Notes under the pieces: model-generated
The model's input: the letters and a program-made list of their open reading frames with translations, nothing else
Told to the model about the DNA's origin: nothing
Database searches by the model: none
In this document: positions 1-12,831 of the stretch, one piece after another
How the letters are laid out: each line of letters begins with the position of its first letter
Position numbering within the stretch: position 1 is the first letter of the stretch
Assembly (NCBI RefSeq): GCF_003018255.1
Contig: NZ_CP027440.1
Origin: Escherichia coli
GTDB lineage: Bacteria > Pseudomonadota > Gammaproteobacteria > Enterobacterales > Enterobacteriaceae
Strand: one strand, 5' to 3'
Length of the DNA stretch: 64,000 nt
Program-made: the position numbers and the translations under genes

Positions 1-180
1 CAACGCTCGTCCTACTTCCGATGCCGGGACAGAAAAAGAACCCTGCATCAGACCGAATATCAGTATTCCAACCGCAAACAGAAACAGCCCACCAAGCAAC
101 AGCAGATTTTTAGGGCGTACCAGTGTCGAAAACTTACCAACACGTAGTGGGCGTAGCCCGACGTTCATTATCCGACTCAT
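1..180 (-). CDS. iron-siderophore ABC transporter permease (FecCD family), 5' part only; gene runs off the window start
   Basis: Minus-strand ATG at 180-178 overlaps the TGA stop (179-177) of the upstream permease. Translation MSRIMNVGLRPLRVGKFSTLVRPKNLLLLGGLFLFAVGILIFGLMQG is a typical hydrophobic FecCD N-terminus. Absent from the ORF track because it has no in-window stop. Confidence 0.5.
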   Translation of the reverse strand, partial: MSRIMNVGLRPLRVGKFSTLVRPKNLLLLGGLFLFAVGILIFGLMQGSFSVPASEVGRAL

Positions 181-1160
181 TTGAACATCCTCGTCGCCAT
201 AATGACAAAAACAGGCGCACCAACTAACGCCGTCATGACACCGGTCGCTAACTCATGGGGCGTGAAAAGCGTCCGGGCAATAATATCTGCCAGTAATAAC
301 AAAAGTGCGCCGACACAAGCTGAAAGAGGGAGCAGAACGCGCAGATCCGCTGATACCAGACGCCGGACAATCTGCGGTACCAACAGGCCGACAAAACCAA
401 TGGGGCCAGCAATCGATACGGCTGCGCCACAGAGCAACGCGATCGCAAGCAGGGTAAATGTTCGCGTGCGGAGTACAGAGACGCCCAGCCCCTGCGCCAT
501 GCGATCGCCCAGTGCCAACATGTTAAGGTAGGGTGCAAGGTAAAGGGCTAACACAAATCCCCCCAGAGAAAACCAGGCGGACGTACCCAGCGTCGCCCAA
601 TCCTGCCCCGCTAAATCACCTGCTAGCCATGTCCGCATCGCCAGCAGTGTTTGTTCGTCAAGAATCAGGATTGCAGCCGTTATTGAGGACACGAACGCCG
701 ATAGCGCCACGCCGCATAAAGTAACTTTCATTGGCGTTACCCCTGAACGCCCTGCGGAGGAAAGCAGCAATATCAACAGGAACAATAACGCGCCCCCCGT
801 AGATGCCAGCAGTGGGCGTCCAACCGGAAAGGCCAGTCCAAGCGCACTGGCGGCAACGACAGCAAGAGCGGCTCCGGCATTTAAGCCTAAAATATGTGGC
901 TCCCCCAATGGGTTACGAATGACAGCCTGCAACAAAGCACCAGCAACACCAAGAGAAGCACCGGTAAGCAATGCTGCCGCTAAACGCGGCAAACGGAGTC
1001 TTACAATTACGTTGTGATCGAAGTTTTGCGGATCAAAATGAAGAAATGCCTGCAACACCGTTTGTGGTGCAATAAATCGGGCACCAATCCCTGGATATAC
1101 CACGCATCCCACCAGCAGTAAGGCGAGGAAAATTACAGTAACCAGCCCTGTGCGCATCAT
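177..1160 (-). CDS. iron-siderophore/B12-type ABC transporter permease (FecCD family)
   Basis: 327 aa polytopic membrane protein with FecCD-like C-terminal region (GAPVFV...); ATGA overlap with the upstream ATPase gene and with the next permease. Confidence 0.85.
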   Translation of the reverse strand: MMRTGLVTVIFLALLLVGCVVYPGIGARFIAPQTVLQAFLHFDPQNFDHNVIVRLRLPRLAAALLTGASLGVAGALLQAVIRNPLGEPHILGLNAGAALAVVAASALGLAFPVGRPLLASTGGALLFLLILLLSSAGRSGVTPMKVTLCGVALSAFVSSITAAILILDEQTLLAMRTWLAGDLAGQDWATLGTSAWFSLGGFVLALYLAPYLNMLALGDRMAQGLGVSVLRTRTFTLLAIALLCGAAVSIAGPIGFVGLLVPQIVRRLVSADLRVLLPLSACVGALLLLLADIIARTLFTPHELATGVMTALVGAPVFVIMATRMFK

Positions 1161-1966
1161 ACTTTTTCTACACCACGAAACGGCATGAAGAACGGCTTTC
1201 CCGTCAGAGGATTTATTGATGCGTGAACATCAACGTCAAAGACAGCTTTTACCAGCTCAGGCGTGCAATGCTCCCCCTCATTCAACACACGCACCACTTT
1301 CCCCTGGCGTAAAAATATCAACGTATCGCCATAATTGACGGCAAAATTCAGATCATGCAACACCACGACGACTGTACGCCCGTGATGACGCGTTAAATCA
1401 TGTAATAACTCAAGAATTTCAACCTGATAACGTAAATCAAGCCAGGTTGTGGGTTCATCCAGCAGGATATAAGGCGTCTTTTGCGCCAACACCATCGCAA
1501 TCCAGCAACGCTGGCGCTGCCCACCAGAGAGTTTTTCAACAGGTAAATGTGCAAACTCCTGCGTACCGGTTAATTTCAGGGCCTCTTCCACCGCCTGCTC
1601 ATCGGCGTCGCTCCATTGACGTATGAAATTTTGCCAGGGAAAACGCCCACGCGACACCAGTTCATAAACGGTTAAGCCCTCCGGCAATAATGGCGACTGC
1701 GGCAAGATCCCAAGTCTACGGGATAACGCTTTCGTTGGTTGCTCGTGAATCGCTTTGCCATCAAGCAATATCGAACCGCCCATAGGTTGCAAGATACGTG
1801 CAATGGTGCTGAGCAACGTCGACTTTCCACAGCCGTTTGCCCCAACCAGAACGGTCATTTTTTCTGTGGGAACGGAGAAAGAAACACCATCAACAATGAT
1901 CTTCTTGTGATACCCGGCAGAAACATTGTCGAGGATCAGCCCCTGCCCTTTTGCGTTATGTGCCAC
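1157..1966 (-). CDS. ABC transporter ATP-binding protein, FecE/FepC-like (iron-siderophore import)
   Basis: 269 aa; Walker A GANGCGKST, ABC signature LSGGQRQR, Walker B ILLDEPT; first gene of a minus-strand operon divergent from the TonB-dependent receptor. Confidence 0.9.
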   Translation of the reverse strand: MAHNAKGQGLILDNVSAGYHKKIIVDGVSFSVPTEKMTVLVGANGCGKSTLLSTIARILQPMGGSILLDGKAIHEQPTKALSRRLGILPQSPLLPEGLTVYELVSRGRFPWQNFIRQWSDADEQAVEEALKLTGTQEFAHLPVEKLSGGQRQRCWIAMVLAQKTPYILLDEPTTWLDLRYQVEILELLHDLTRHHGRTVVVVLHDLNFAVNYGDTLIFLRQGKVVRVLNEGEHCTPELVKAVFDVDVHASINPLTGKPFFMPFRGVEKV

Positions 1967-2218
1967 GTGTACGCCAACTTAATCAAAGACAAACAAAAAT
2001 AAAACTCATTCTCCTTTGAGAGTTTGACGCCACAAAATGTAGTAGTCAAGCAGTTAAAAGCCACACAAAAACAAGGTAAATAACAGGTAAAATATTTTTA
2101 TACATAAAAATAAAAACATTAAATATCAATAAATTAAAAGCAATCAAATTGTATAAGCCTTTCATAAAAACACATGTAGCAATTTTTTGTTATTTCTCAT
2201 TTACTACTACATTACTGC

Positions 2219-2241
2219 GTGATTGAATGATTCTCAATTAC
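2219..2241. promoter_or_regulatory. weak candidate Fur box in the divergent promoter region between ABC operon and receptor gene
   Basis: GATTGAATGATTCTCAATTA has partial hexamer similarity to the Fur consensus GATAATGATAATCATTATC (about 11 of 21 by eye), inside a 370 bp AT-rich intergenic region. Confidence 0.25.
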
Positions 2242-2339
2242 ATATCCGATGGCGAAATAACAAACGGATAGTGCTTAGTGAGCAATAAGAAACAATTTTC
2301 ACTCGCGACAATCCGCGAGTTTTTGGGATAACAGACTAA

Positions 2340-4481
2340 ATGGCTATGTTCACACCTTCATTCTCAGGACTCAAAGGTCGGGCGCTCTTTTCACTGCTTT
2401 TTGCGGCACCGATGATTCATGCAACAGACTCTGTAACGACCAAAGATGGCGAAACAATCACTGTTACAGCAGATGCAAATACCGCAACTGAGGCAACCGA
2501 TGGTTATCAACCTCTGAGCACCTCCACGGCGACATTAACCGATATGCCGATGCTGGATATCCCGCAGGTGGTCAATACGGTTAGCGATCAGGTTCTGGAA
2601 AACCAGAATGCGACGACGCTGGATGAGGCGCTTTATAACGTCAGTAACGTGGTACAGACCAATACATTAGGCGGGACTCAGGATGCTTTTGTACGCCGTG
2701 GGTTTGGCGCAAACCGGGATGGCTCCATCATGACCAACGGTCTGCGAACCGTACTTCCTCGCAGTTTCAACGCCGCCACAGAACGTGTGGAAGTGCTAAA
2801 AGGCCCGGCCTCCACGCTGTATGGCATTCTCGATCCTGGCGGACTGATTAACGTCGTGACCAAGCGCCCGGAAAAAACATTCCATGGTTCGGTTTCAGCC
2901 ACCTCCTCCAGTTTTGGTGGCGGCACTGGGCAACTTGATATCACAGGTCCCATTGAAGGCACTCAGCTGGCGTATCGCCTTACCGGGGAAGTGCAGGATG
3001 AAGATTACTGGCGAAACTTCGGTAAAGAGCGCAGTACATTTATTGCCCCGTCACTCACCTGGTTTGGTGATAATGCAACAGTAACCATGCTCTATTCCCA
3101 TCGGGACTATAAAACTCCGTTCGATCGTGGAACGATTTTCGACCTTACGACGAAACAGCCCGTAAACGTTGATCGAAAAATACGTTTTGACGAACCGTTT
3201 AATATTACAGATGGTCAGTCCGATCTGGCGCAACTCAACGCAGAATATCATCTCAATAGCCAGTGGACAGCGCGCTTTGATTACAGCTACAGCCAGGATA
3301 AATACAGCGATAATCAGGCGCGTGTTACCGCGTATGATGCAACGACAGGAACACTGACACGGCGTGTTGATGCAACTCAGGGATCTACCCAGCGTATGCA
3401 TGCTACTCGTGCGGATCTGCAAGGGAATGTTGATATTGCCGGATTCTATAATGAGATTCTGGGTGGGGTGTCATATGAATATTATGATCTTCTGCGTACA
3501 GATATGATTCGCTGTAAAAAAGCTAAAGATTTCAATATCTACAACCCTGTTTATGGTAATACCAGCAAATGTACAACGGTTTCGGCGTCGGACAGTGATC
3601 AGACGATCAAACAGGAGAGCTACTCAGCGTATGCACAGGACGCACTCTATCTGACCGATAACTGGATTGCCGTCGCCGGGATCCGCTATCAGTATTACAC
3701 GCAGTATGCGGGTAAAGGCCGTCCTTTTAATGTCAATACTGACAGCCGCGATGAACAATGGACTCCCAAACTGGGGTTGGTCTACAAACTGACGCCATCG
3801 GTATCCTTATTTGCCAATTATTCGCAAACATTTATGCCGCAGTCGTCAATTGCCAGCTACATTGGCGATCTTCCACCGGAATCATCTAATGCTTACGAAG
3901 TCGGGGCAAAATTCGAGCTATTCGATGGTATCACCGCAGATATTGCGCTGTTTGATATCCATAAACGTAATGTGTTGTATACCGAAAGTGTTGGTGATGA
4001 AACCATTGCCAAAACGGCAGGCCGTGTTCGTTCAAGAGGGGTAGAAGTCGACCTTGCGGGAGCATTAACTGAAAACATTAATATCATTGCCAGCTACGGC
4101 TATACCGATGCTAAGGTTCTGGAAGATCCTGATTATGCAGGTAAACCATTGCCGAATGTTCCTCGTCATACCGGTTCGCTATTCCTGACCTATGACATTC
4201 ATAACATGCCTGGCAATAACACACTGACGTTTGGCGGTGGTGGACATGGCGTAAGCCGTCGTTCGGCAACCAATGGGGCTGACTATTATCTGCCAGGCTA
4301 TTTTGTTGCCGATGCCTTCGCCGCATACAAAATGAAATTGCAGTATCCGGTCACACTGCAATTAAACGTCAAAAACCTGTTTGATAAAACGTATTACACC
4401 TCTTCCATCGCCACAAATAATCTGGGGAATCAGATTGGCGATCCGCGTGAAGTGCAATTCACGGTGAAAATGGAATTTTGA
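2340..4481 (+). CDS. TonB-dependent outer-membrane siderophore receptor (FhuA/FhuE-like)
   Basis: 713 aa; signal peptide; TonB-box-like ETITVTA near the N-terminus; plug-domain motifs; C-terminal aromatic residue (VKMEF) typical of OM beta-barrels. Confidence 0.9.
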   Translation: MAMFTPSFSGLKGRALFSLLFAAPMIHATDSVTTKDGETITVTADANTATEATDGYQPLSTSTATLTDMPMLDIPQVVNTVSDQVLENQNATTLDEALYNVSNVVQTNTLGGTQDAFVRRGFGANRDGSIMTNGLRTVLPRSFNAATERVEVLKGPASTLYGILDPGGLINVVTKRPEKTFHGSVSATSSSFGGGTGQLDITGPIEGTQLAYRLTGEVQDEDYWRNFGKERSTFIAPSLTWFGDNATVTMLYSHRDYKTPFDRGTIFDLTTKQPVNVDRKIRFDEPFNITDGQSDLAQLNAEYHLNSQWTARFDYSYSQDKYSDNQARVTAYDATTGTLTRRVDATQGSTQRMHATRADLQGNVDIAGFYNEILGGVSYEYYDLLRTDMIRCKKAKDFNIYNPVYGNTSKCTTVSASDSDQTIKQESYSAYAQDALYLTDNWIAVAGIRYQYYTQYAGKGRPFNVNTDSRDEQWTPKLGLVYKLTPSVSLFANYSQTFMPQSSIASYIGDLPPESSNAYEVGAKFELFDGITADIALFDIHKRNVLYTESVGDETIAKTAGRVRSRGVEVDLAGALTENINIIASYGYTDAKVLEDPDYAGKPLPNVPRHTGSLFLTYDIHNMPGNNTLTFGGGGHGVSRRSATNGADYYLPGYFVADAFAAYKMKLQYPVTLQLNVKNLFDKTYYTSSIATNNLGNQIGDPREVQFTVKMEF

Positions 4482-4588: not shown

Positions 4589-5929
4589 TCATATATTTTT
4601 AGGCTGTAAACACACCTTAATCTGTTCGTAATATTCATTATTAATCAGATAAAATCTCATGATGAGTCCGGTAATCAGGTTAAGTATCGCGGGAATGATC
4701 GTCATTAACAGGCAGATCCCCCACAACGCCTGTGGTGTTTGTTCTACGCCAGGTTGATAGTCCATAAACGCTAAAGCGATTCCGATAAACCCTCCCGCCA
4801 GTCCCATACCAAACTTTTGAAAAAAGAGAATCCCGCCAAATGCCAGTCCAGAAACACGTTGCCCCGTTTTCATTTCACCATAATCCACTGACTCAGCAAT
4901 GGATGCCCAATAAATGGGAAGCTGAATATCAGTCAGAAAGGTCACCACAATATAAAATGTAAAAGCTAACACTATAGAATTTGGTTGCACGAAATACATC
5001 GCACCACCCACCACGAACGCCAGTAATTGGGTATAACGAAATATTTTTATTTTGTCGTAGAGTCGAGTAAGCCAGGTGCAAGCGATCATAGCCAGAACAG
5101 AGGCGATCACGCCTGAAGTTAAAAACGGTGAAATTAAAGCATCCCCACCATTCAGGTAATATTTTGCATAATATGCAGCGACAGAGTTACGAATAATCCC
5201 GCCAAACATAATGATCGCAATTACAGCGCCCAAAATGAGCCATTGATCATTTTTGATCAGTAACCGAAACTGCGCGGCCATACCGAGACTGGGTTTTGGA
5301 TGGTAGATGCGCTCTCTCACGCTAAAAAAACAATACAGGCATAAACACGTTGCCAGAATTCCCATTGCCCCCATTGCTATTTGATAACCCAGTTGTACGT
5401 TATTCTTCCCAAGATACATTGCAGATAAAGGAACAATAATTGTTACGGCGAACATGGCAATTTTTGTCATAACAAAACGATAACCATTGGCGCTCAATCG
5501 CTCTTGTGGATCATCCGTGATAACGCTGATTAATGAAACATAAGGAATAGCGATTAACGTATAGGTCAAGGTAAGTAACACATAGGTAGCCCAAGCCCAT
5601 AAAAGCTTAACTGAATAATCGGTATTAGGTGTGGTGAACATCAACCAAATGCTTATCCCAAACGGTATTGACATAAAAAGCAACCACGGCCGATATTTTC
5701 CCCAACGTGTATTCGTTCTGTCTGTCATTGTTCCCACAACTGGATCAATCACAGCATCAAGGATACGTACAGAAAATAACAGAATACCTAAGTCGACGGG
5801 TTTCAGACCAAATACATCCGTGTAAAAATAAGTGATGATCATGGCCAAAGACATCATTACTATCGCGATAGCCATATCACCAGCACCAAAACCTATCTTT
5901 TCATTTATTGTAAGTTTCATACACAGCAC
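4589..5929 (-). CDS. GPH-family (glycoside-pentoside-hexuronide) cation symporter
   Basis: About 445 aa polytopic protein; N-terminal GPH/MelB-type signature YFYTDVFGL...RILDAVIDPVVGTMTDRTNTRWGKYRPWLL; true start may be the second Met (5920). Confidence 0.85.
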   Translation of the reverse strand: MLCMKLTINEKIGFGAGDMAIAIVMMSLAMIITYFYTDVFGLKPVDLGILLFSVRILDAVIDPVVGTMTDRTNTRWGKYRPWLLFMSIPFGISIWLMFTTPNTDYSVKLLWAWATYVLLTLTYTLIAIPYVSLISVITDDPQERLSANGYRFVMTKIAMFAVTIIVPLSAMYLGKNNVQLGYQIAMGAMGILATCLCLYCFFSVRERIYHPKPSLGMAAQFRLLIKNDQWLILGAVIAIIMFGGIIRNSVAAYYAKYYLNGGDALISPFLTSGVIASVLAMIACTWLTRLYDKIKIFRYTQLLAFVVGGAMYFVQPNSIVLAFTFYIVVTFLTDIQLPIYWASIAESVDYGEMKTGQRVSGLAFGGILFFQKFGMGLAGGFIGIALAFMDYQPGVEQTPQALWGICLLMTIIPAILNLITGLIMRFYLINNEYYEQIKVCLQPKNI

Positions 5930-6206: not shown

Positions 6207-6959
6207 ATGATAAAAATTTATAAAGCCAGTAAAGGTCAGCTAAAGCATCGTGAAATCTTTGATGAAATAAAGAAAAAAGTAGATAACGGTGAATGGAAAG
6301 AAGGCAAAGCCATACCGACAGAAAGGGAATTGTCAGAATATTATTTAAGTAGCAGAACAACTATTCGAAAGGCAATAGAAAGTCTTAAACAACGCGGCTA
6401 CCTGCATAGTGTCCACGGGCAAGGAACATTTGTATTGCCTTCTCGTAGTAGAGAAAATCATTTATTGCATAGTTTTACCGACGATATTAAAGCTCGAGGT
6501 GGTATACCAGCACAGAATATTCTTGAGATAGGCTATGTTCCTGTCAGTGATGTTATCAGAAAAAATCTCGACCTGGATATCCATATCCAAACCGTATTCT
6601 GTATAAAACGCGTTCGCTATATGGGAAGTACCCCCCTGGGTATTCAGACATCATGGCTTGCATTAAATGACAGGCAAGAAATAACCCAAGAAGATCTGCT
6701 GGCGACGGGTTCGCTCTATATTTTACTGGAAGAAAAACTCGCTATTAAACCTTTAGAAGCAACAGAAATTATCTCTGCCCGGCTTCCCTCGCCCCTTGAG
6801 CGTCAATTACTGGAACTGACTGCCGATGATGTCGTATTAAGTTGTACCCGCGTCACGTTATCCGTGGAACGCAAACCAATGGAGTATGTAGAGATGGTGT
6901 ATCCCGCAAGCCGGTACTCCTACAAAGCACGAATTACAAAAGACAGTTTTAGCGTGTAA
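6207..6959 (+). CDS. GntR-family transcriptional regulator, HutC/FrlR-like (HTH plus UTRA-type C-terminal domain)
   Basis: 250 aa; N-terminal GntR HTH pattern (ERELSEYYLSSRTTIRKAIESL...GYL.SVHGQGTFV); first gene of a tightly packed co-directional array. Confidence 0.85.
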   Translation: MIKIYKASKGQLKHREIFDEIKKKVDNGEWKEGKAIPTERELSEYYLSSRTTIRKAIESLKQRGYLHSVHGQGTFVLPSRSRENHLLHSFTDDIKARGGIPAQNILEIGYVPVSDVIRKNLDLDIHIQTVFCIKRVRYMGSTPLGIQTSWLALNDRQEITQEDLLATGSLYILLEEKLAIKPLEATEIISARLPSPLERQLLELTADDVVLSCTRVTLSVERKPMEYVEMVYPASRYSYKARITKDSFSV

Positions 6960-6972
6960 CAGAGAGAATATT

Positions 6973-8049
6973 GTGAACAAAATAGAACAAGCTGTAATTT
7001 ATAACAAAATATTAGGTTCTTTAGCCTGCGCAGGTATGGGCGATGCATTAGGCGCAGCGACTGAACTCTACAGCATTGATGAAATAAAAGCTCAATGGGG
7101 AGGTTTTTTAAATGCCTTTGTTTCTCCTCCTGCCGATACATTCGCTGGCTCATTAAATGGTATTGCGGGACTTATCACCGACGATTCCAGCCAAATGTAT
7201 GTGTTTTCAGAAGGGTTAATTGAGGCTGGATTTGATAACTTCACCAATAATGACTGGTTAGCTTGTCTTCTGCGTTGGGCCGATATGCAGCCCTACGCAA
7301 ATTATAAAGGCCCCACAACAGAACAAATCGTCAAGGCACTAAAAGAAGGTAGACCAACAAACACCATTGGGCGTATTGGAACATCTTCTCGTCAGGCACC
7401 CAATGTCGGCACCACGAATGGAGCAGGAATGCGTGTAGCCCCTGCAGGATTGATCTGGCCAGGCAAGAAAGAAAAAGCGTGTCACCTGGCGCTAATAACT
7501 TGCCTACCTTCGCATGACACCAATATTGCGATTGCCAGCGCTTGCGCCATCGCTGCGGCGACATCACAAGCTATGTTACCAGAAGCTTCGCTCACATCAT
7601 TACTGGACGCCGCAATCTGGGGAGCGAATTACGGCGAACGCCTGGCCAAACAATATGCACGATGTGTCGCAGGGCCATCTATCGCCATGCGCATCCAACT
7701 TGCAGCGGACATCGCCAGACGAGCCAATGACCTGGAGTCTTGTCTGCGAGAAATGGAAGGTTTGGTTGGTAACTCTGTTGCCGCCCATGAATCCATTCCT
7801 GCGGCAATCGGTCTATTGCTGTACTGCAAAGGAGAACCCTGGGAAACCATTCATGCCTGCGCCAATATTGGCAATGACACCGATAGCATCGCTACGATGG
7901 CAGGCGCAATTGCAGGGGCATGGCGCGGTTTTGATGCGCTCCCTGAAGATAAATATGCCTTTTTCCGCGCCGTAAATAATAAAGATTTCGATATTGAAGC
8001 GATCGCATCGGGTCTGACATTGCTTGCATTAGAGGCACAGGAGAAATAA
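6973..8049 (+). CDS. ADP-ribosylglycohydrolase-family (DraG/ARH-like) hydrolase
   Basis: 358 aa; GTG start 14 nt after the regulator stop; N-terminal GSLACAGMGDALGAATE and C-terminal GNDTDSIATMAGAIAGA match the two metal-binding signature regions of the family. Confidence 0.8.
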   Translation: MNKIEQAVIYNKILGSLACAGMGDALGAATELYSIDEIKAQWGGFLNAFVSPPADTFAGSLNGIAGLITDDSSQMYVFSEGLIEAGFDNFTNNDWLACLLRWADMQPYANYKGPTTEQIVKALKEGRPTNTIGRIGTSSRQAPNVGTTNGAGMRVAPAGLIWPGKKEKACHLALITCLPSHDTNIAIASACAIAAATSQAMLPEASLTSLLDAAIWGANYGERLAKQYARCVAGPSIAMRIQLAADIARRANDLESCLREMEGLVGNSVAAHESIPAAIGLLLYCKGEPWETIHACANIGNDTDSIATMAGAIAGAWRGFDALPEDKYAFFRAVNNKDFDIEAIASGLTLLALEAQEK

Positions 8050-9047
8050 TGAACATGCCAGCCCGTACTCCTGTTATGCCATTAGCGCAAACTCGTGAGG
8101 AGATAAATGCTACGGCGGCATCGTTACGCCATTTGGCAGCTATCTGGGGTGAATGTTTTTCTACTTTTCAGCTCGATAAACGTGCTGTTGAACGCGTCTG
8201 TATAGTGGGATCGGGCGACTCCTGGACGGTGGCACTATGTGCCGCCGCCTGGCTGGGGAAATACACACATCTGTTTTGTTACGCATTGCAAACGTGGGAT
8301 TTTCTTCAGACTGATTTAACCCGTTATCAGAAAGAAACGTTAATCATTATTCTCAGTGCAAGTGGCAGACCATCAATGACCGTTGACGCCCTCTGCCACG
8401 CAGTATGCTCAAACGCGCAAGTGCTGGGTGTGACGAATTGCCCTGGAACACCATTTTGCGCAATAACAGAAAACATGCTCTATACATGGGCGAATAAGCA
8501 GGGTATTCCAACGCAAAGTAGTAGCGTCACACTTTATGCCCTCCTGCGCTTAGCGCAAAAATTATGTCCAGGCTTAACACCACTGCAGATTGAAGATGAT
8601 TTGGAAGGGAAATTTAGCCAGATTAATCAGCACTGGCAGCAAAAGAAGCGCCATTTTTACCAACAAAAAGAGATAACGTTTCTTGGGAGTGGCTTAAGTT
8701 GGGGACTGGCAATATCGGGGAGCAATTTACTTTCTTGCGGCCCACAGATTCGTGCGACAGCCCTTCCACTGGAAGAATTTTATCATTCATTACGCTTACA
8801 TCAGGCTGGTGTCGGTCAGCATTATATTTTACTACCAGCCACATCCTGCGAGTCCCCATTTTACCTTGCAACCCAAAAAGCAATTGTTGAACAGGGAGCG
8901 ACAGCAGAATTAATCAGTTTTATACCTGACGCCAGTGAGTCCAACAATTTATTTCTGGTCATGCAGTGGTTATATGAAATGTGCTGGAATTTAAGTTGTG
9001 ATTATGTCGACGCAGGCGGGCAACGCGTTAGCCATAGGGAGAAATAA
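8049..9047 (+). CDS. double SIS-domain sugar-phosphate isomerase/deglycase-like protein
   Basis: 332 aa; start overlaps the upstream stop (TAATG); SIS motifs VCIVGSGDSWTVAL...LIIILSASGRPSMTVDAL...VLGVTN and a second GSGLSW repeat; unusually Cys/Trp rich. Confidence 0.65.
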   Translation: MNMPARTPVMPLAQTREEINATAASLRHLAAIWGECFSTFQLDKRAVERVCIVGSGDSWTVALCAAAWLGKYTHLFCYALQTWDFLQTDLTRYQKETLIIILSASGRPSMTVDALCHAVCSNAQVLGVTNCPGTPFCAITENMLYTWANKQGIPTQSSSVTLYALLRLAQKLCPGLTPLQIEDDLEGKFSQINQHWQQKKRHFYQQKEITFLGSGLSWGLAISGSNLLSCGPQIRATALPLEEFYHSLRLHQAGVGQHYILLPATSCESPFYLATQKAIVEQGATAELISFIPDASESNNLFLVMQWLYEMCWNLSCDYVDAGGQRVSHREK

Positions 9048-9051
9048 GACT

Positions 9052-9966
9052 ATGAAGAAATTTGATGTCGCCGCTTTAGGCAGTGGAAATATAGATATTT
9101 TTTTATCTATCCCGTCACTCCCCACTCGTGGCGGTAAAGTTGTCGGGACACGTCTGGGTGAACAAGCTGGCGGCACAGTCGCCAACAGTGCCTGTGCGAT
9201 GGGACAACTGGGTCTCAATGTGGTATCTGTTTCATGTGTGGGCAATGATCATTCAGCCTCGATCATTCTTGATGGATTTAAAAAATATCATGTAAATTGT
9301 GATTTCGTTCAGGTAATTCCGGAATTGATTGCCAATACCGCGATTATCTTTATTGATGAATTAGGTGAAAAAACGTTGGTTTACTCGCCTGGTAGTGATC
9401 ATGAGTGGGATAAAGAAAAAGCCCTGCAGGCAATTGCGCAAAGCCGTTATTTTTATACGATGCCAGCAGATATCGAGAAATTTCGTATGCTGGCCGAATA
9501 TTCCCGTAGCCAGATGACAAAAGTTGTCGTTGATATTGAGCCTCATATCATTGCAACACCTGAACACCTTGCCAGAATTTTACACCTTGCTGATATTGCG
9601 ATATTTAATTATGACGGTTTTATTCGTGGCTATGCAACAGAGCCAGATTTTACACTTCTGCATGATATACAAGACGAGTATCAACTTGACGCTGTCGTGG
9701 TTACGCTGGATGTTAGGGGAGTAATTGCAGTCAAAGGCAATGAGCAAGTAAAAATAGGTAGTTATACAATTCCCGTTATTGATACCACAGGCGCTGGAGA
9801 TACTTTTAATGGTGCATTTGTTTATAGCTTAATAAAAAATATGCCCTTAATTGAAGCACTAAAATTTGCTTCTGCCACAGCAGCAATAAATATTACTGCA
9901 TTAGGTGCCAGAGGTCATCTGCCGACACCATCGGAGGTTAATCTTTTTCTTTCACAACACGACTAA
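9052..9966 (+). CDS. PfkB-family carbohydrate/nucleoside kinase (ribokinase-like)
   Basis: About 304 aa taking Met at 9052, 5 nt after the SIS stop (the ORF-track start 8998 is an upstream extension); PfkB signature DTTGAGDTFNGAF and N-terminal AALGSGNIDIF. Confidence 0.85.
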   Translation: MKKFDVAALGSGNIDIFLSIPSLPTRGGKVVGTRLGEQAGGTVANSACAMGQLGLNVVSVSCVGNDHSASIILDGFKKYHVNCDFVQVIPELIANTAIIFIDELGEKTLVYSPGSDHEWDKEKALQAIAQSRYFYTMPADIEKFRMLAEYSRSQMTKVVVDIEPHIIATPEHLARILHLADIAIFNYDGFIRGYATEPDFTLLHDIQDEYQLDAVVVTLDVRGVIAVKGNEQVKIGSYTIPVIDTTGAGDTFNGAFVYSLIKNMPLIEALKFASATAAINITALGARGHLPTPSEVNLFLSQHD

Positions 9967-9993: not shown

Positions 9994-11118
9994 ATGAAAA
10001 TAAGATATGCCGCTATTTTTCTGGCATTACCGCTGTTATGCACAACAGCGCAGGCAAACAGTTTTCTTCATTATGCTGGGGAGTTTAACTTCCGGACGGG
10101 AGAAAAGCAGAACAATGTCACAATCGCGGGGCTATCAGCCATCACATTTGATGCAAAAAAAAATATTTTCTATGCTATTAACGATAGCAGAAACAATAAT
10201 AAAGAAGGAGATGCCAGTCTTTATACACTAAAAATACAGGTATCATCCAGGGGCATTGAGCAAGTGAATTTTCTCAACCAGCGTCCACTGCTTGATGCAA
10301 AACAGCAACCTTTCGTGACCAATACGGTGGATGCCGAAGGTCTGGCCCTGACACACAATGGTAAATCATTACTCTGGAGTTCGGAGTTAGGTGCTCCACT
10401 GCGTCTGAGCACTCTCGATGGCGTAATGGAGAAAGATTTTACGTCTTTATTTCCTGCTCGCTTTAATATTAGTTCTGACAAAGAGAGCAGCAATGGTATT
10501 CGCAGCGGCAACGCCTGGGAGGGCCTGACAGTTACACCAGATGGAAAATCACTTTTTATCGCCGTTGAAAGCAGCCTTAAACAGGATGGGCCTATTGCAA
10601 GTCCAATAAATTCAGGCACATCACGCTTACTGCAATTTTCTATAGATGCAGACGGTCGACCTTCAAAGCAATTGCATGAATATCTCTATATTACTGATCC
10701 TGTTCCGCAAGTGAGTAAGTTCGGTATTAATGATAATGGCGTATCCGAGGTCATGGCGCTGAATGATCACCAATTGTTGGTCATCGAACGTTCCGGCAGA
10801 AACGTCAGTGCTGGGTTCAATGACTGGGATTACTCTGTCAGAGTTTATATGGTCGATTTAACTGCTGCCAGCGATATCAAGAATATTGACAGTCTGCAAG
10901 ATTGGTCCAATAAATCCACGTTACAACCCGTCAGTAAAAAATTATTAATTGATTTTGCTGATTACACTTCCTCTGCGGATTGTATTGAAGGGGTAACCTT
11001 CGGTCCTCTGATTGATGGGCATACATCGTTAATATTTGTATCTGATAATAATTTCCAGCCCCATCAACAGACGAAATTTTATCTATTCATTGATAAGGAA
11101 AACAAACTTAAAATTTAA
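9994..11118 (+). CDS. secreted protein of unknown function, possibly phytase-like/beta-propeller esterase fold (tentative)
   Basis: 374 aa; N-terminal signal peptide (LALPLLCTTAQA); AT-rich codon usage; function inferred only from general resemblance. Confidence 0.5.
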   Translation: MKIRYAAIFLALPLLCTTAQANSFLHYAGEFNFRTGEKQNNVTIAGLSAITFDAKKNIFYAINDSRNNNKEGDASLYTLKIQVSSRGIEQVNFLNQRPLLDAKQQPFVTNTVDAEGLALTHNGKSLLWSSELGAPLRLSTLDGVMEKDFTSLFPARFNISSDKESSNGIRSGNAWEGLTVTPDGKSLFIAVESSLKQDGPIASPINSGTSRLLQFSIDADGRPSKQLHEYLYITDPVPQVSKFGINDNGVSEVMALNDHQLLVIERSGRNVSAGFNDWDYSVRVYMVDLTAASDIKNIDSLQDWSNKSTLQPVSKKLLIDFADYTSSADCIEGVTFGPLIDGHTSLIFVSDNNFQPHQQTKFYLFIDKENKLKI

Positions 11119-11213
11119 AGTCAAACTATAGATACAAAAACATTCTAATACATGGAATCATCAGATGGTGTATTCGATCACCAAAAATATATTTTATTCT
11201 GAAAGGGAATATT

Positions 11214-11948
11214 ATGAATTCTTATCTTAAAATATCACTTGCAGGAATAACAATGTTATCCTGCCTGTCACCTACACTAGTCTGTGCAGAACAGCCGCAT
11301 GGATTTATTGATTATCGCCATGAGTATCTTGATGATACTCGCACCCACGCGGACCGCGTTGAATTTGGTACATTTTTTAGTAATGGTATCGGTTTGATGG
11401 GAGAATTACGCTATAACACCGATGAAGGTGATAAAGATAAGTGGGACCCCTCACAATTTGGCAATAACGGAACAGGATTATCTGTTGTTTACCGCTTTAA
11501 GCCGCTGGATGACAAAAAATTCTGGTTAGAACCCATGTTCTGGCTTGATACCACGCAATATTGGTCAACTTACGAATATGGTCTTTCTGCGGGTTATGAC
11601 TTCAGCAAAGAATGGAAAGTTTCAGGTCGGTTTCGTTATGACATGGATAAAGCCACCGATAAATCCAAAGGTTATGGCAACGATGATCGTAATAACCGCC
11701 GTTACGATGTGTGGATCGACTATCGACCACAAAAAACCAACTTCCAATATCAGTTAAACCTGGTCTATTACAATAATGGTTATTTAACCTGGAATGATGG
11801 CCATAAAAACTATACCGCATCATTTAAAGTAGGGTACAAAATGGGATCGTGGATACCCTATATGAGTATTGCGGATTATAAAGGTGTGGATAAAACATCA
11901 AGTAATCGCCAAATCCGCTGGCGCTGGGGTCTGACTTATACTTTCTAA
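11214..11948 (+). CDS. small outer-membrane beta-barrel protein, KdgM/NanC-like porin (tentative)
   Basis: 244 aa; signal peptide; alternating aromatic/hydrophilic strands; C-terminal WRWGLTYTF ending in Phe as in OM barrels. Confidence 0.5.
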   Translation: MNSYLKISLAGITMLSCLSPTLVCAEQPHGFIDYRHEYLDDTRTHADRVEFGTFFSNGIGLMGELRYNTDEGDKDKWDPSQFGNNGTGLSVVYRFKPLDDKKFWLEPMFWLDTTQYWSTYEYGLSAGYDFSKEWKVSGRFRYDMDKATDKSKGYGNDDRNNRRYDVWIDYRPQKTNFQYQLNLVYYNNGYLTWNDGHKNYTASFKVGYKMGSWIPYMSIADYKGVDKTSSNRQIRWRWGLTYTF

Positions 11949-11961
11949 TCTGGAATAAAAA

Positions 11962-12831
11962 ATGAATAATAAATTTAAAATCATTCTCTGGATGATGCTC
12001 TCTGCTCTGCCTGCTTTATCTTACGCACAGGTAAAAAATATAGTTACTGGCGAATATAGTGCGGTCAGTAAAATTATCACAGAAAAGGAAACTCTCTATC
12101 CATCCGATAAGATATTATTGGTTTTTGACATTGATAACACGTTATTAACGAGTGGCACTCGCATTGGCGGTGATATCTGGTATCAATGGCAAACCGATAA
12201 ATTGCCTTTAAAGCCGGATGACTCGCAAAAAGTTCCTTGCCTGTATGAAAATACAATCAGTATGCTTTACGAACTTAGCCCTATGCAGCTTACCGAGCCA
12301 CAGTTACCGACAATGTTAAAACAGTGGCAACAAAAGCATACCGCTTTTGCTCTGACATCCCGTGCACCGGATACTCTCTTTCCGACATTGCGGGAATTAA
12401 AGCGAAACGGCATTGATTTTTCGTCTTCCGCACTCAGGAAGAAAGAGGATACTTTGCCACCCTTTGAAAAAGGGAAACTCAAACGGTCATGGCTGTACAG
12501 CCAGGGGGTATTTTTTTCTTCCGGGCAAGATAAAGGCGTAATTCTCGATTATATGCTGGATAAAATGGGGAACAAATATGACGCGATTGTTTTTATCGAT
12601 GACGGGCAAGCAAACATTCATGCGATGACGAAGATGTTCTCTAAGGATAAATGGTCCTCTACGGATTTTACCATTATTCACTATACCAGAGTGGAGGATG
12701 AGCTTATTAAACAACAAGGTGCAGTAATAACAACTGCACAAGCAGAAAAAATGGCTACGGACTGGAAAACTCTGGCTGGTTCGCTGGCAACACTATTTCC
12801 AGATCGTAATAAACTGTGCCCAATAAAATAA
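11962..12831 (+). CDS. secreted HAD-superfamily phosphatase (acid-phosphatase-like)
   Basis: 289 aa; signal peptide; HAD motif I LVFDIDNTLL and motif IV-like VFIDDGQAN. Confidence 0.55.
   Translation: MNNKFKIILWMMLSALPALSYAQVKNIVTGEYSAVSKIITEKETLYPSDKILLVFDIDNTLLTSGTRIGGDIWYQWQTDKLPLKPDDSQKVPCLYENTISMLYELSPMQLTEPQLPTMLKQWQQKHTAFALTSRAPDTLFPTLRELKRNGIDFSSSALRKKEDTLPPFEKGKLKRSWLYSQGVFFSSGQDKGVILDYMLDKMGNKYDAIVFIDDGQANIHAMTKMFSKDKWSSTDFTIIHYTRVEDELIKQQGAVITTAQAEKMATDWKTLAGSLATLFPDRNKLCPIK

What the first reader, a model, noticed from the sequence alone, without database searches (positions are those of the whole stretch)
8049..9047. Unusually Cys/Trp-rich double-SIS protein
The predicted 332 aa SIS protein has many Cys and Trp residues (for example CIVGSGDSWTVALCAAAWLGKYTHLFCYALQTW, CHAVCSNAQVLGVTNCPGTPFCA, WLYEMCWNLSCDY). 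This is atypical for cytoplasmic SIS isomerases and may indicate metal or redox involvement, or a divergent non-catalytic binding role.
Basis: seen in the sequence. Interest (0 to 1): 0.35.

Follow-up and report, generated by a model that had tools for sequence, protein, structure and literature searches.

The report
Cys-rich SIS protein with altered catalytic site
This is a real but fast-evolving sugar-phosphate enzyme from a rare, uncharacterised nucleoside-type nutrient-use gene cluster of E. coli; most of its many cysteines are recent and unconserved, but one conserved cysteine occupies the spot where all known relatives have their catalytic glutamate.

Summary
The ORF (8049-9047, +, 332 aa) is real and folds as a two-SIS-domain protein of the GlmS-isomerase/FrlB type. 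It has 13 Cys (3.9%), the highest fraction of 46 window ORFs and of 134 relatives (binomial P about 8e-5). Its 9 Trp are not significant against the window but tie for highest in the family.

Eleven of the 13 Cys are confined to the E. coli lineage. Counts fall from 13 to 3-5 with divergence, two Cys are polymorphic within E. coli, and there is no CxxC motif. A conserved multi-Cys metal or redox centre is therefore not supported.

C230 is the exception. It aligns with the catalytic base Glu of GlmS (E488), FrlB (E224) and FraB (E214), exactly 16 residues before the conserved His (H246). It is Cys in 22 of the 23 closest full-length sequences and Glu in 104 of 136 relatives.

The gene lies in a conserved GntR / ADP-ribosylglycohydrolase / SIS / PfkB operon with nucleoside-type transporters, on an accessory island in about 7.5% of complete E. 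coli genomes. SIS is the fastest-evolving gene of the cluster (dN/dS about 0.3).

Caveat: a distant ARH-linked homolog has Ala at position 230, so a catalytic role for the Cys is inferred, not shown.

Verdict: new variant of a known kind, moderate interest.

The parts
8049..9047 (+). SIS gene (332 aa), a two-SIS-domain protein of the GlmS-isomerase/FrlB fold type; the subject of the finding
8736..8738 (+). Codon of C230 (TGC), in the motif NLLSCGPQ. It sits at the position of the canonical catalytic-base Glu (GlmS E488, FrlB E224, FraB E214).
   Evidence: Alignments. Cys in 22 of the 23 closest full-length sequences (one Ser) and Glu in 104 of 136 relatives. TGC and TGT alternate across loci.
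8784..8786 (+). Codon of H246, equivalent to GlmS H504, FrlB H240 and FraB H230, and 16 residues after C230
   Evidence: the 16-residue rule comes from PMC10285752
8772..8777 (+). Codons of E242-E243, an invariant Glu pair just before H246 (motif EEFxHSLRL); E242 is clade-specific and could be a relocated base
8355..8375 (+). Phosphate-binding loop S103-A-S-G-R-P-S109, equivalent to GlmS S347-Q-S-G-E-T352; Arg107 is invariant and replaces the Glu
8277..8279 (+). Codon of C77, the second conserved Cys. It lies in a beta-strand of the first SIS domain, is conserved down to about 30% identity in most members, and is Val, Ala, Ser or Ile in others.
6973..8049 (+). ADP-ribosylglycohydrolase-family gene; its TAA stop overlaps the SIS ATG by one base (TAATG)
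9052..9966 (+). PfkB-family, ribokinase-like kinase gene (RefSeq start; the mechanical ORF list offers an upstream GTG at 8998)
6207..6959 (+). GntR/UTRA (HutC-type) regulator gene, first gene of the operon
4589..5920 (-). Divergently transcribed GPH-family (MFS_2) glycoside:cation symporter gene
9994..11118 (+). Phytase-like esterase gene (PF13449); found next to the core genes in 7 of the 8 related clusters where the downstream flank is available
11214..11948 (+). KdgM-family porin gene, conserved in the enterobacterial versions of the cluster
11962..12831 (+). DUF2608 gene (weak HAD-phosphatase similarity), conserved in the enterobacterial versions of the cluster

Best explanation
The gene encodes a functional, cytoplasmic, two-SIS-domain phosphosugar-processing protein of the GlmS-isomerase / NagB-II / FrlB structural type. 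It is the third gene of a horizontally acquired operon (GntR, ADP-ribosylglycohydrolase, SIS, PfkB kinase) with a divergent GPH symporter. Inferred pathway: a nucleoside-like or ribosyl-type glycoside is imported. Its glycosidic bond is cleaved by the ARH-family hydrolase and the sugar moiety is phosphorylated by the ribokinase-like kinase, in an order not determined here. The SIS protein then isomerises the resulting phosphosugar, or isomerises and de-aminates it, into a central metabolite. The high Cys and Trp content is mainly a by-product of fast, weakly constrained evolution in the E. coli lineage, through Ser, Tyr, Arg or hydrophobic to Cys substitutions. It is not a conserved metal or redox centre. 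The active site is remodelled: the canonical general-base Glu is replaced by a conserved Cys (C230), while the partner His (H246), the phosphate loop and a clade-specific set (R107, K150, Q156, E242, R249) are invariant. The most likely reading is that the C230 thiolate, or alternatively the invariant E242/E243 pair, acts as the proton-shuttling base. Shown here: fold, composition, conservation pattern, residue equivalence, operon conservation, purifying selection. Inferred: substrate class, reaction order and the catalytic role of C230.
For: Fold: pLDDT 90.4, Foldseek TM 0.76-0.79 to GlmS isomerase domains, NagB-II and B. subtilis FrlB; hhalign probability 99.9% to a GlmS-like profile. Residue equivalence: C230 aligns with the Glu of KLKE, and H246 with the His of ELKH, in phmmer, hmmsearch, hmmalign and hhalign alignments. 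The C-to-H spacing is 16, the same as the Glu-His spacing reported as invariant for GlmS, FrlB and FraB (PMC10285752). Glu488, His504 and Lys603 are the catalytic residues of the GlmS isomerase domain (PMC9272926). Conservation: Cys in 22 of the 23 closest full-length sequences (25-100% identity), with both TGC and TGT codons. Lineage-specific Cys; polymorphism within the species. Operon: ARH-SIS-PfkB is conserved in 10 independent loci down to 25-30% SIS identity, with GPH or Bmp-type ABC transporters, a Tsx channel and UshA-like 5'-nucleotidases. A Glu-type relative sits beside three IU-nucleoside hydrolases, PfkB kinases and a nucleoside-symporter-like MFS protein. Selection: dN/dS about 0.3, and the region is present over at least 80% of its length in 404 genomes. 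Precedent for Cys or Glu as the base in phosphosugar isomerases: E. coli RpiB Cys66 and M. tuberculosis RpiB Glu75 (PMC4783025).
Against: P0041, and probably P0042, are more distant ARH-linked homologs with Ala or Gly at the C230 column in an ungapped alignment. One close homolog has Ser. Neither Glu nor Cys is therefore universally required in this cluster type, and A, G, S and C are all small residues. SIS is the most diverged gene in every locus, and its dN/dS is about 3 times that of ARH, which is also compatible with a less critical or non-catalytic role. No substrate, activity or metal content was measured. No dimer model with coordinates was available to check the geometry of C230 and H246 from the partner subunit. 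The family sample is small (about 22 sequences) and mostly from metagenomes.
Confidence: 0.55

Rival explanations
1. The protein is a non-catalytic pseudoenzyme. Having lost the catalytic Glu, it only binds a phosphosugar and acts as a regulatory, sensing or specificity subunit, for example of the translationally coupled ARH hydrolase.
For: The canonical base is absent, and the column is Cys, Ser, Ala or Gly across ARH-linked members. In FraB even E214D is inactive (PMC10285752). SIS is the fastest-evolving gene of the cluster, with dN/dS about 0.3 against 0.09 for ARH. Start and stop codons overlap with ARH in all loci examined.
Against: H246, E242/E243, R249, K150 and the phosphate loop are invariant over 25 sequences down to about 25% identity. 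That is more than phosphate binding alone would need. C230 is kept with synonymous codon turnover. The position in the operon between a hydrolase and a kinase is that of a pathway enzyme, as in the frl and fra operons.
Confidence: 0.2
2. C230, H246 from the partner subunit and E242/E243 form a small catalytic metal site (Zn2+, Fe2+ or Mn2+). This would convert the enzyme into a metal-dependent isomerase. It is a restricted version of the first reader's metal idea.
For: Cys, His and two Glu are classic metal ligands and are all conserved at the predicted inter-subunit active site. A Zn-bound SIS domain of E. coli GlmS is among the structural matches (7dnr).
Against: ARH-linked homologs with Ala or Gly at position 230 would lack the Cys ligand. 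No geometry could be checked. The Glu-type relatives carry the same EE-x-x-H motif without needing a Cys.
Confidence: 0.12
3. The many Cys form a conserved Fe-S, Zn or disulfide redox centre that is central to function.
For: 13 Cys, three close pairs (C116-x3-C120, C131-x5-C137, C312-x4-C317) and the highest Cys content in the family.
Against: None of those six Cys is found in homologs at or below 58% identity, except C317 in two and C131 in one. C116 is Ser in an E. coli allele 95% identical at the protein level, and C120 and C317 are Tyr and Ser in the 85% homolog. There is no CxxC motif. The replacements are typical neutral exchanges (Ser, Tyr, Arg, hydrophobic).
Confidence: 0.03

Closest known systems
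FrlB / FraB fructosamine-6-phosphate deglycases (E. coli and Salmonella frl and fra operons)
   Same: Both are stand-alone two-SIS-domain proteins of about 330 aa. Both are encoded with a PfkB kinase, a GntR/UTRA regulator and a transporter. Both have the phosphate-binding SxSG loop and the catalytic His at the same position.
   Different: The catalytic Glu (E224 in FrlB, E214 in FraB) is Cys here. By motif register, the FrlB T96 and E98 positions read Pro108 and Met110. The NCBIfam FrlB score is 19 bits against a cutoff of 430. The operon carries an ARH-family hydrolase, and its accessory genes point to nucleoside-type rather than Amadori substrates.
GlmS isomerase domain and NagB-II / GlmD GlcN6P deaminases
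   Same: These are the best structural matches (TM 0.76-0.79) and the best profile match (hhalign 99.9%). The His504 equivalent and the phosphate loop are retained.
   Different: There is no glutaminase domain. E488 becomes C230, K485 becomes L227, E351 becomes R107 and T352 becomes P108. The glmS model scores 39 bits against a cutoff of 418, and no NagB-II or GlmD model matched at E <= 0.001.
E. coli K-12 yegTUV operon with the YegW (GgaR) repressor
   Same: The same parts list: nucleoside-type transporter, ADP-ribosylglycohydrolase-family protein, PfkB kinase and GntR-family repressor. The enzyme functions there are also unknown (PMC10819704).
   Different: yegTUV has no SIS gene and uses an NHS rather than a GPH transporter. 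Homology between the two ARH and kinase pairs was not tested here.
Bacteroidetes ribose-utilisation systems (Rus loci)
   Same: [quoted passage not shown] This mirrors the ARH versus IU-hydrolase alternation seen beside SIS and PfkB here (bioRxiv 10.1101/574913).
   Different: Rus loci are SusC/D-based polysaccharide-utilisation-type loci, and no SIS component was noted in the passages read. The relation is an analogy of logic, not homology of the locus.
RpiB ribose-5-phosphate / allose-6-phosphate isomerase
   Same: A phosphosugar aldose-ketose isomerase in which the proton-shuttling base is Cys in some members (E. coli Cys66) and Glu in others (M. tuberculosis Glu75) (PMC4783025). It shows that a thiolate base is chemically workable.
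   Different: An unrelated fold (LacAB/RpiB); a mechanistic analogy only.

Membership tests
SIS domain superfamily (Pfam PF01380) | Profile match above the Pfam gathering score | tested here: met
   34.6 bits against a cutoff of 25, residues 48-162
Two-domain (double-SIS) GlmS-isomerase-type fold | Two tandem SIS alpha/beta subdomains superposable on GlmS, NagB-II or FrlB structures | tested here: met
   AF2 pLDDT 90.4; Foldseek TM 0.76-0.79 and E down to 4.5e-18 over about 350 columns; hhalign 99.9% over 276 columns
GlmS / FrlB / FraB catalytic type | Catalytic Glu (general base) and His (general acid or ring opener) exactly 16 residues apart | tested here: not met
   The His is present (H246), but the Glu position is Cys (C230) at spacing 16; the rule comes from PMC10285752
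GlmS (TIGR01135 / NF001484) | Curated equivalog score and an N-terminal glutaminase domain | tested here: not met
   39 bits against 418, 37 bits against 381; the protein is only 332 aa with no glutaminase domain
FrlB fructoselysine-6-P deglycase (NF008481) | Curated equivalog score | tested here: not met
   19.2 bits against a cutoff of 430
FrlB / FraB | Phosphate-loop motif S-x-S-G-x-T-x-E, with the last Glu anchoring the catalytic His of the partner subunit | tested here: inconclusive
   By motif register the loop reads S103-A-S-G-R-P-S-M110, with Thr replaced by Pro and Glu by Met. No residue-level alignment to FrlB itself was printed.
NagB-II (NF046059), GlmD (NF041128), AgaS (TIGR02815) | Curated family score | tested here: not met
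   No hit to these models at E <= 0.001 for the query. The Cys-type homolog P0020 scores 43.5 bits against 430 for NagB-II.
Cys-ligated metal or redox proteins (Fe-S, Zn-ribbon, thioredoxin-like) | Conserved Cys motif (CxxC or a spaced Cys cluster) shared by homologs | tested here: not met
   No CxxC; 11 of 13 Cys are not conserved beyond homologs of at least 85% identity; two are polymorphic within E. coli
ARH-SIS-PfkB cluster family (defined here) | SIS gene flanked by an ADP-ribosylglycohydrolase-family gene upstream and a PfkB kinase gene downstream on the same strand | tested here: met
   Window and 10 independent related loci
Functional (non-pseudogene) coding sequence | Intact ORF under purifying selection | tested here: met
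   dN/dS 0.28-0.32 between E. coli alleles (16 non-synonymous and 14 synonymous differences, where neutral evolution would give roughly 3.4 non-synonymous per synonymous difference); the ARH-SIS-PfkB region is present over at least 80% of its length in 404 genomes

The most novel reading that the evidence does not exclude
The gamma-proteobacterial ARH-linked SIS proteins would be the first GlmS/FrlB-type SIS enzymes that use a cysteine thiolate (C230) instead of the otherwise obligatory glutamate as the catalytic base. They would act on a phosphosugar, or a phosphoribosylamine- or Amadori-type intermediate, of a so far unrecognised catabolic pathway for a nucleoside-like nutrient, carried by about 7.5% of complete E. 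coli genomes.
Probability: 0.3. Interest if true: 0.6.

Novelty: new variant of a known kind. Interest (0 to 1): 0.4.

Why it matters
The deglycases FrlB and FraB are studied as drug targets and as models of inter-subunit catalysis. In those enzymes the Glu base is considered indispensable, and even Glu to Asp inactivates FraB. A natural, conserved Glu-to-Cys subfamily would be a ready-made test of how much chemical freedom that active site has. It would also predict sensitivity to thiol-reactive compounds.

The ARH-SIS-PfkB operon is an uncharacterised accessory catabolic module of E. coli, Enterobacter, a probable Vibrio-type genome and others. Its context points to a nucleoside-like or ribosyl compound that has not been identified. 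Finding that substrate would add a nutrient niche to E. coli strain variation and might shed light on the equally unexplained yegTUV operon.

The narrower lesson is that a striking amino-acid composition can be mostly drift. Here only one or two of the 13 cysteines carry signal.

Tried and rejected
1. A conserved metal or redox Cys cluster is rejected: 11 of 13 Cys are not conserved, there is no CxxC motif, and two Cys are polymorphic within the species.

2. Trp enrichment as a significant feature of the window is rejected (P = 0.076). It is, however, a feature of the enterobacterial clade relative to the superfamily.

3. An ORF artefact or wrong frame is rejected: homology runs the whole length, the RefSeq annotation is the same, and the opposite strand is full of stops.

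4. A pseudogene is rejected: dN/dS is about 0.3 and the region is intact in about 404 genomes.

5. Membership in GlmS, FrlB, NagB-II, GlmD or AgaS is rejected: all scores are far below the curated cutoffs.

6. A strict rule that all ARH-linked SIS proteins carry Cys is rejected after finding P0041 (Ala) in an ARH-SIS-PfkB cluster.

7. Four literature searches for this cluster found only tangential papers.

8. The scan of about 100,000 species genomes returned one locus, Enterobacter sp. BIGb0383. The pattern used was narrow (NLL[SAY]CGPQ), so variants such as the one in L009 were missed. Rarity is therefore real but overstated by this scan.

9. The contexts of P0034, P0035 and P0037 were too short or lacked Pfam labels and were uninformative.

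10. A first attempt to search PDB with the kinase used a wrong frame and was repeated correctly.

11. I could not measure distances in the 3D model because no coordinates are returned. No claim is made about Cys-Cys proximity or about the geometry of C230 and H246.
Full report
**1. Observation**

The + strand ORF at 8049-9047 translates to 332 aa without internal stops. The opposite strand is full of stops. RefSeq annotates the identical ORF in E. coli genomes as an 'SIS domain-containing protein', WP_001318049.1.

The protein has 13 Cys (3.92%) and 9 Trp (2.71%). Across 46 non-overlapping ORFs of the window, the means are 1.13% Cys and 1.57% Trp, and this ORF has the highest Cys fraction of all.

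- **Cys:** binomial P is 8e-5, with 3.6 expected. This is still significant after allowing for 46 ORFs.
- **Trp:** P is 0.076, which is not significant. Several window ORFs are richer in Trp.
- **Against the family:** among 134 full-length relatives from across the superfamily, the query has the highest Cys fraction (median 1.12%) and ties for the highest Trp fraction (median 0.76%).

So the compositional observation is correct. It is strong for Cys and weaker for Trp.

Pfam sees only the N-terminal SIS domain (residues 48-162). An AlphaFold model built on a 12-sequence alignment is confident (pLDDT 90.4, pTM 0.90). It superposes over its whole length on two-SIS-domain structures: GlmS isomerase domains, NagB-II, TM0813 and B. 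subtilis FrlB (TM 0.76-0.79). 'Double SIS' is therefore right.

**2. Where it is**

The window is E. coli. The 4-kb region around the gene occurs in 407 of 5,426 complete genomes, always on the chromosome. It lies in an accessory island between ygiN and parE.

The island also carries a MurR/RpiR regulator, a siderophore ABC transporter and a TonB-dependent receptor. The cluster's GC content is 41-49%, against 53.5% for parE. This fits horizontal acquisition.

The local genes are as follows:

- a divergent GPH-family symporter;
- a GntR/UTRA regulator;
- an ADP-ribosylglycohydrolase (ARH) family protein;
- the SIS protein;
- a ribokinase-like PfkB kinase;
- a phytase-like esterase, a KdgM-family porin and a DUF2608 protein.

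The ARH stop codon and the SIS start codon overlap (TAATG).

**3. Are the Cys and Trp conserved?**

The family is very small. A word-indexed search of 5.8 billion proteins gave 19 hits. An exhaustive profile search of 1.84 billion representatives gave 28 hits at E <= 1e-30, followed by a continuum of ordinary SIS proteins. A scan of about 100,000 species genomes for the family's signature motif found one locus, in Enterobacter sp. BIGb0383.

In alignments, Cys counts fall steadily with divergence:

| Sequence | Identity to query | Cys count |
|---|---|---|
| Query | 100% | 13 |
| P0001 | 95% | 11 |
| P0002 | 85% | 9 |
| P0007 | 58% | 7 |
| Eight homologs | about 46-50% | 3-5 |

Only C77 and C230 persist. 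C36, C51, C64, C116, C120, C131, C137, C173, C267, C312 and C317 are replaced in relatives by Ser, Tyr, Arg, His, Ile, Leu, Thr and similar residues.

Between E. coli alleles, C116S and C267R are polymorphic. There is no CxxC motif, and the Cx3C, Cx5C and Cx4C pairs are E. coli-only.

Six of the nine Trp (W33, W59, W68, W196, W218, W313) are conserved down to about 46% identity but not beyond.

A conserved multi-Cys metal or redox centre is not supported.

**4. The exception: C230**

C230 lies in the motif NLL(S/A)CGPQ at the C-terminal end of the helix spanning residues 215-230. Four kinds of alignment place it opposite the Glu of the K-L-K-E motif, and place H246 opposite the His of E-L-K-H:

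- phmmer to Francisella GlmS;
- hmmsearch to human GFAT1 and to 3g68;
- hmmalign of 136 relatives;
- hhalign of the Cys-type family against a GlmS-like profile, at 99.9% probability over 276 columns. That profile includes P0157, a protein that passes the curated glmS equivalog cutoff.

By my count of the GlmS sequence from memory, the Glu of KLKE is E488 and the His of ELKH is H504. The 16-residue spacing is consistent with this.

The literature names Glu488, His504 and Lys603 as the catalytic residues of the GlmS isomerase domain (PMC9272926). [quoted passage not shown] Even FraB E214D is inactive (PMC10285752 and PMC12359202). C230 and H246 are 16 residues apart.

Across the 136 aligned relatives, this column is Glu in 104 and Cys in 22. 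The 22 are the closest sequences, at 25-100% identity; one other close homolog has Ser. Across the fetched loci the Cys codon alternates between TGC and TGT, so the amino acid itself is under selection.

Changing Glu (GAA or GAG) to Cys (TGY) needs three nucleotide changes. Ala, Gly and Ser variants exist in the family and could be intermediates; this is an inference.

Other differences from the canonical site are as follows:

- K485 becomes L227;
- E351 becomes R107, which is invariant;
- T352 becomes P108;
- K150, Q156, E242 and R249 are clade-specific invariant residues.

The phosphate-loop serines (S58, S103, S105) and E243 are retained.

**5. Context and likely role**

ARH-SIS-PfkB order is conserved in ten independent loci, down to 25-30% SIS identity. 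The accessory genes vary:

- a GPH symporter or a Bmp-family ABC transporter (a nucleoside-binding family, from my general knowledge);
- a Tsx nucleoside channel (L002);
- UshA-like 5'-nucleotidases (L006, L007);
- phytase-like esterases, a KdgM porin and DUF2608.

A Glu-type relative (P0033) sits beside three IU-nucleoside hydrolases, PfkB kinases, a second SIS protein and a nucleoside-symporter-like MFS protein.

The picture is a nucleoside-like or ribosyl-glycoside catabolic module in which the glycosidase is interchangeable. This resembles what has been described for Bacteroidetes ribose-utilisation loci (bioRxiv 10.1101/574913). It also resembles the uncharacterised E. coli yegTUV/YegW system (PMC10819704).

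The ARH protein's closest solved relatives are the hypothetical protein MJ1187 and then ARH3. The kinase's closest solved relatives are ribokinases. Neither identifies the substrate.

I infer that the SIS protein converts the phosphosugar made by the hydrolase and the kinase into a central metabolite by aldose-ketose chemistry, possibly coupled to C-N cleavage as in NagB-II or FrlB.

**6. Constraint**

In every locus SIS is the most diverged gene. In L003, for example, ARH is 85% identical, GntR 85%, the porin 89% and PfkB 69%, but SIS only 58%. In L008 and L009, ARH is 65% and SIS 30-32%.

Between E. coli alleles, dN/dS is 0.28-0.32 for SIS, 0.06-0.10 for ARH and 0.10-0.25 for PfkB. The gene is under purifying selection and is not a pseudogene. 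Much of its sequence is free to vary, which explains the accumulation of lineage-specific Cys by conservative single-base substitutions.

**7. Caveat**

P0041, a more distant relative, also lies in an ABC-ARH-SIS-PfkB cluster but has Ala at the C230 column. The alignment there is ungapped between the GxG and EEFHH anchors. P0042 has Gly.

The canonical base position is therefore not universally occupied by a catalytic residue in ARH-linked members. Three possibilities remain:

- the base has moved, with the invariant E242/E243 pair as the obvious candidate, and Cys is an add-on in the gamma-proteobacterial clade;
- Cys restored a base that had been lost earlier;
- these proteins are phosphosugar binders rather than enzymes.

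The strong invariance of H246, E242, E243, R249, K150 and the phosphate loop argues for a working active site. RpiB provides precedent that Cys and Glu can both serve as the proton-shuttling base of a phosphosugar isomerase (PMC4783025).

**8. Comparison and novelty**

The protein is a member of the SIS superfamily and has the two-domain GlmS-isomerase fold. It fails every curated family model (GlmS, FrlB, NagB-II, GlmD, AgaS). It also fails the Glu-His catalytic signature.

It works most like FrlB, FraB or NagB-II in operon logic, but it is not a member of those families. I found no paper describing the cluster or a Cys-type SIS active site. The library is incomplete, so this is absence of evidence only.

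I rate it a new variant of a known kind.

**9. Verdict**

The Cys and Trp richness itself is mostly drift and of low interest. The conserved Cys at the catalytic-base position, within a rare uncharacterised ARH-SIS-PfkB operon, is moderately interesting and directly testable.

Overall interest is 0.4.

Noticed in passing
window 6973-9966 compared with loci L002-L009, L013: The SIS gene is the most diverged member of the cluster in every related locus (for example ARH 85%, PfkB 69% and SIS 58% identity in L003; ARH 65% and SIS 30-32% in L008 and L009). Its dN/dS among E. coli alleles is about 3 times that of ARH.
   Followed up: yes
window 1-4481 and upstream (L001 290-7482): The same accessory island, between ygiN and parE, carries a MurR/RpiR regulator, an iron-siderophore ABC transporter (binding protein, two FecCD permeases, ATPase) and a TonB-dependent siderophore receptor. 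It is unclear whether these are functionally linked to the ARH-SIS-PfkB operon or merely co-resident.
   Followed up: no
protein records P0003 and P0006; PDB 7kqa: Fragments of this SIS protein are named 'iron dicitrate transport regulator FecR' in some NCBI records, and a 350-aa SIS-type PDB entry carries the same name. This is probably a propagated misannotation, perhaps seeded by the neighbouring iron-uptake genes.
   Followed up: no
window 8998-9966 versus 9052-9966: The mechanical ORF list starts the PfkB kinase at a GTG at 8998, overlapping the SIS gene by 50 nt. RefSeq and the homologous loci start it at the ATG at 9052, 4 nt after the SIS stop codon.
   Followed up: partly
window 9994-12831; L003, L004, L006, L007, L008, L013: A phytase-like esterase (PF13449) follows the kinase in most versions of the cluster. 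Enterobacterial versions add a KdgM-family porin and a DUF2608 protein; others add a UshA-like 5'-nucleotidase. This suggests periplasmic pre-processing of a phosphorylated, nucleotide-like precursor.
   Followed up: partly
L002 7853-14514: In one metagenomic relative the cluster sits next to AlpA, DUF2857, TraR and VirB3/VirB4/TrbC type IV secretion genes, apparently on an integrative conjugative element. This fits horizontal spread of the module.
   Followed up: no
L010 4087-13341: A Glu-type relative lies in a large cluster with three IU-nucleoside hydrolases, three PfkB kinases, two SIS proteins, a sugar ABC transporter and a nucleoside-symporter-like MFS protein. This is another uncharacterised nucleoside-type catabolic locus.
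   Followed up: no
window 6973-8049: The neighbouring ARH-family protein is also fairly Cys-rich (9 Cys, 2.5%) and is far better conserved than SIS. Its closest solved relative is the uncharacterised MJ1187 (E = 2.5e-21), followed by ARH3.
   Followed up: partly
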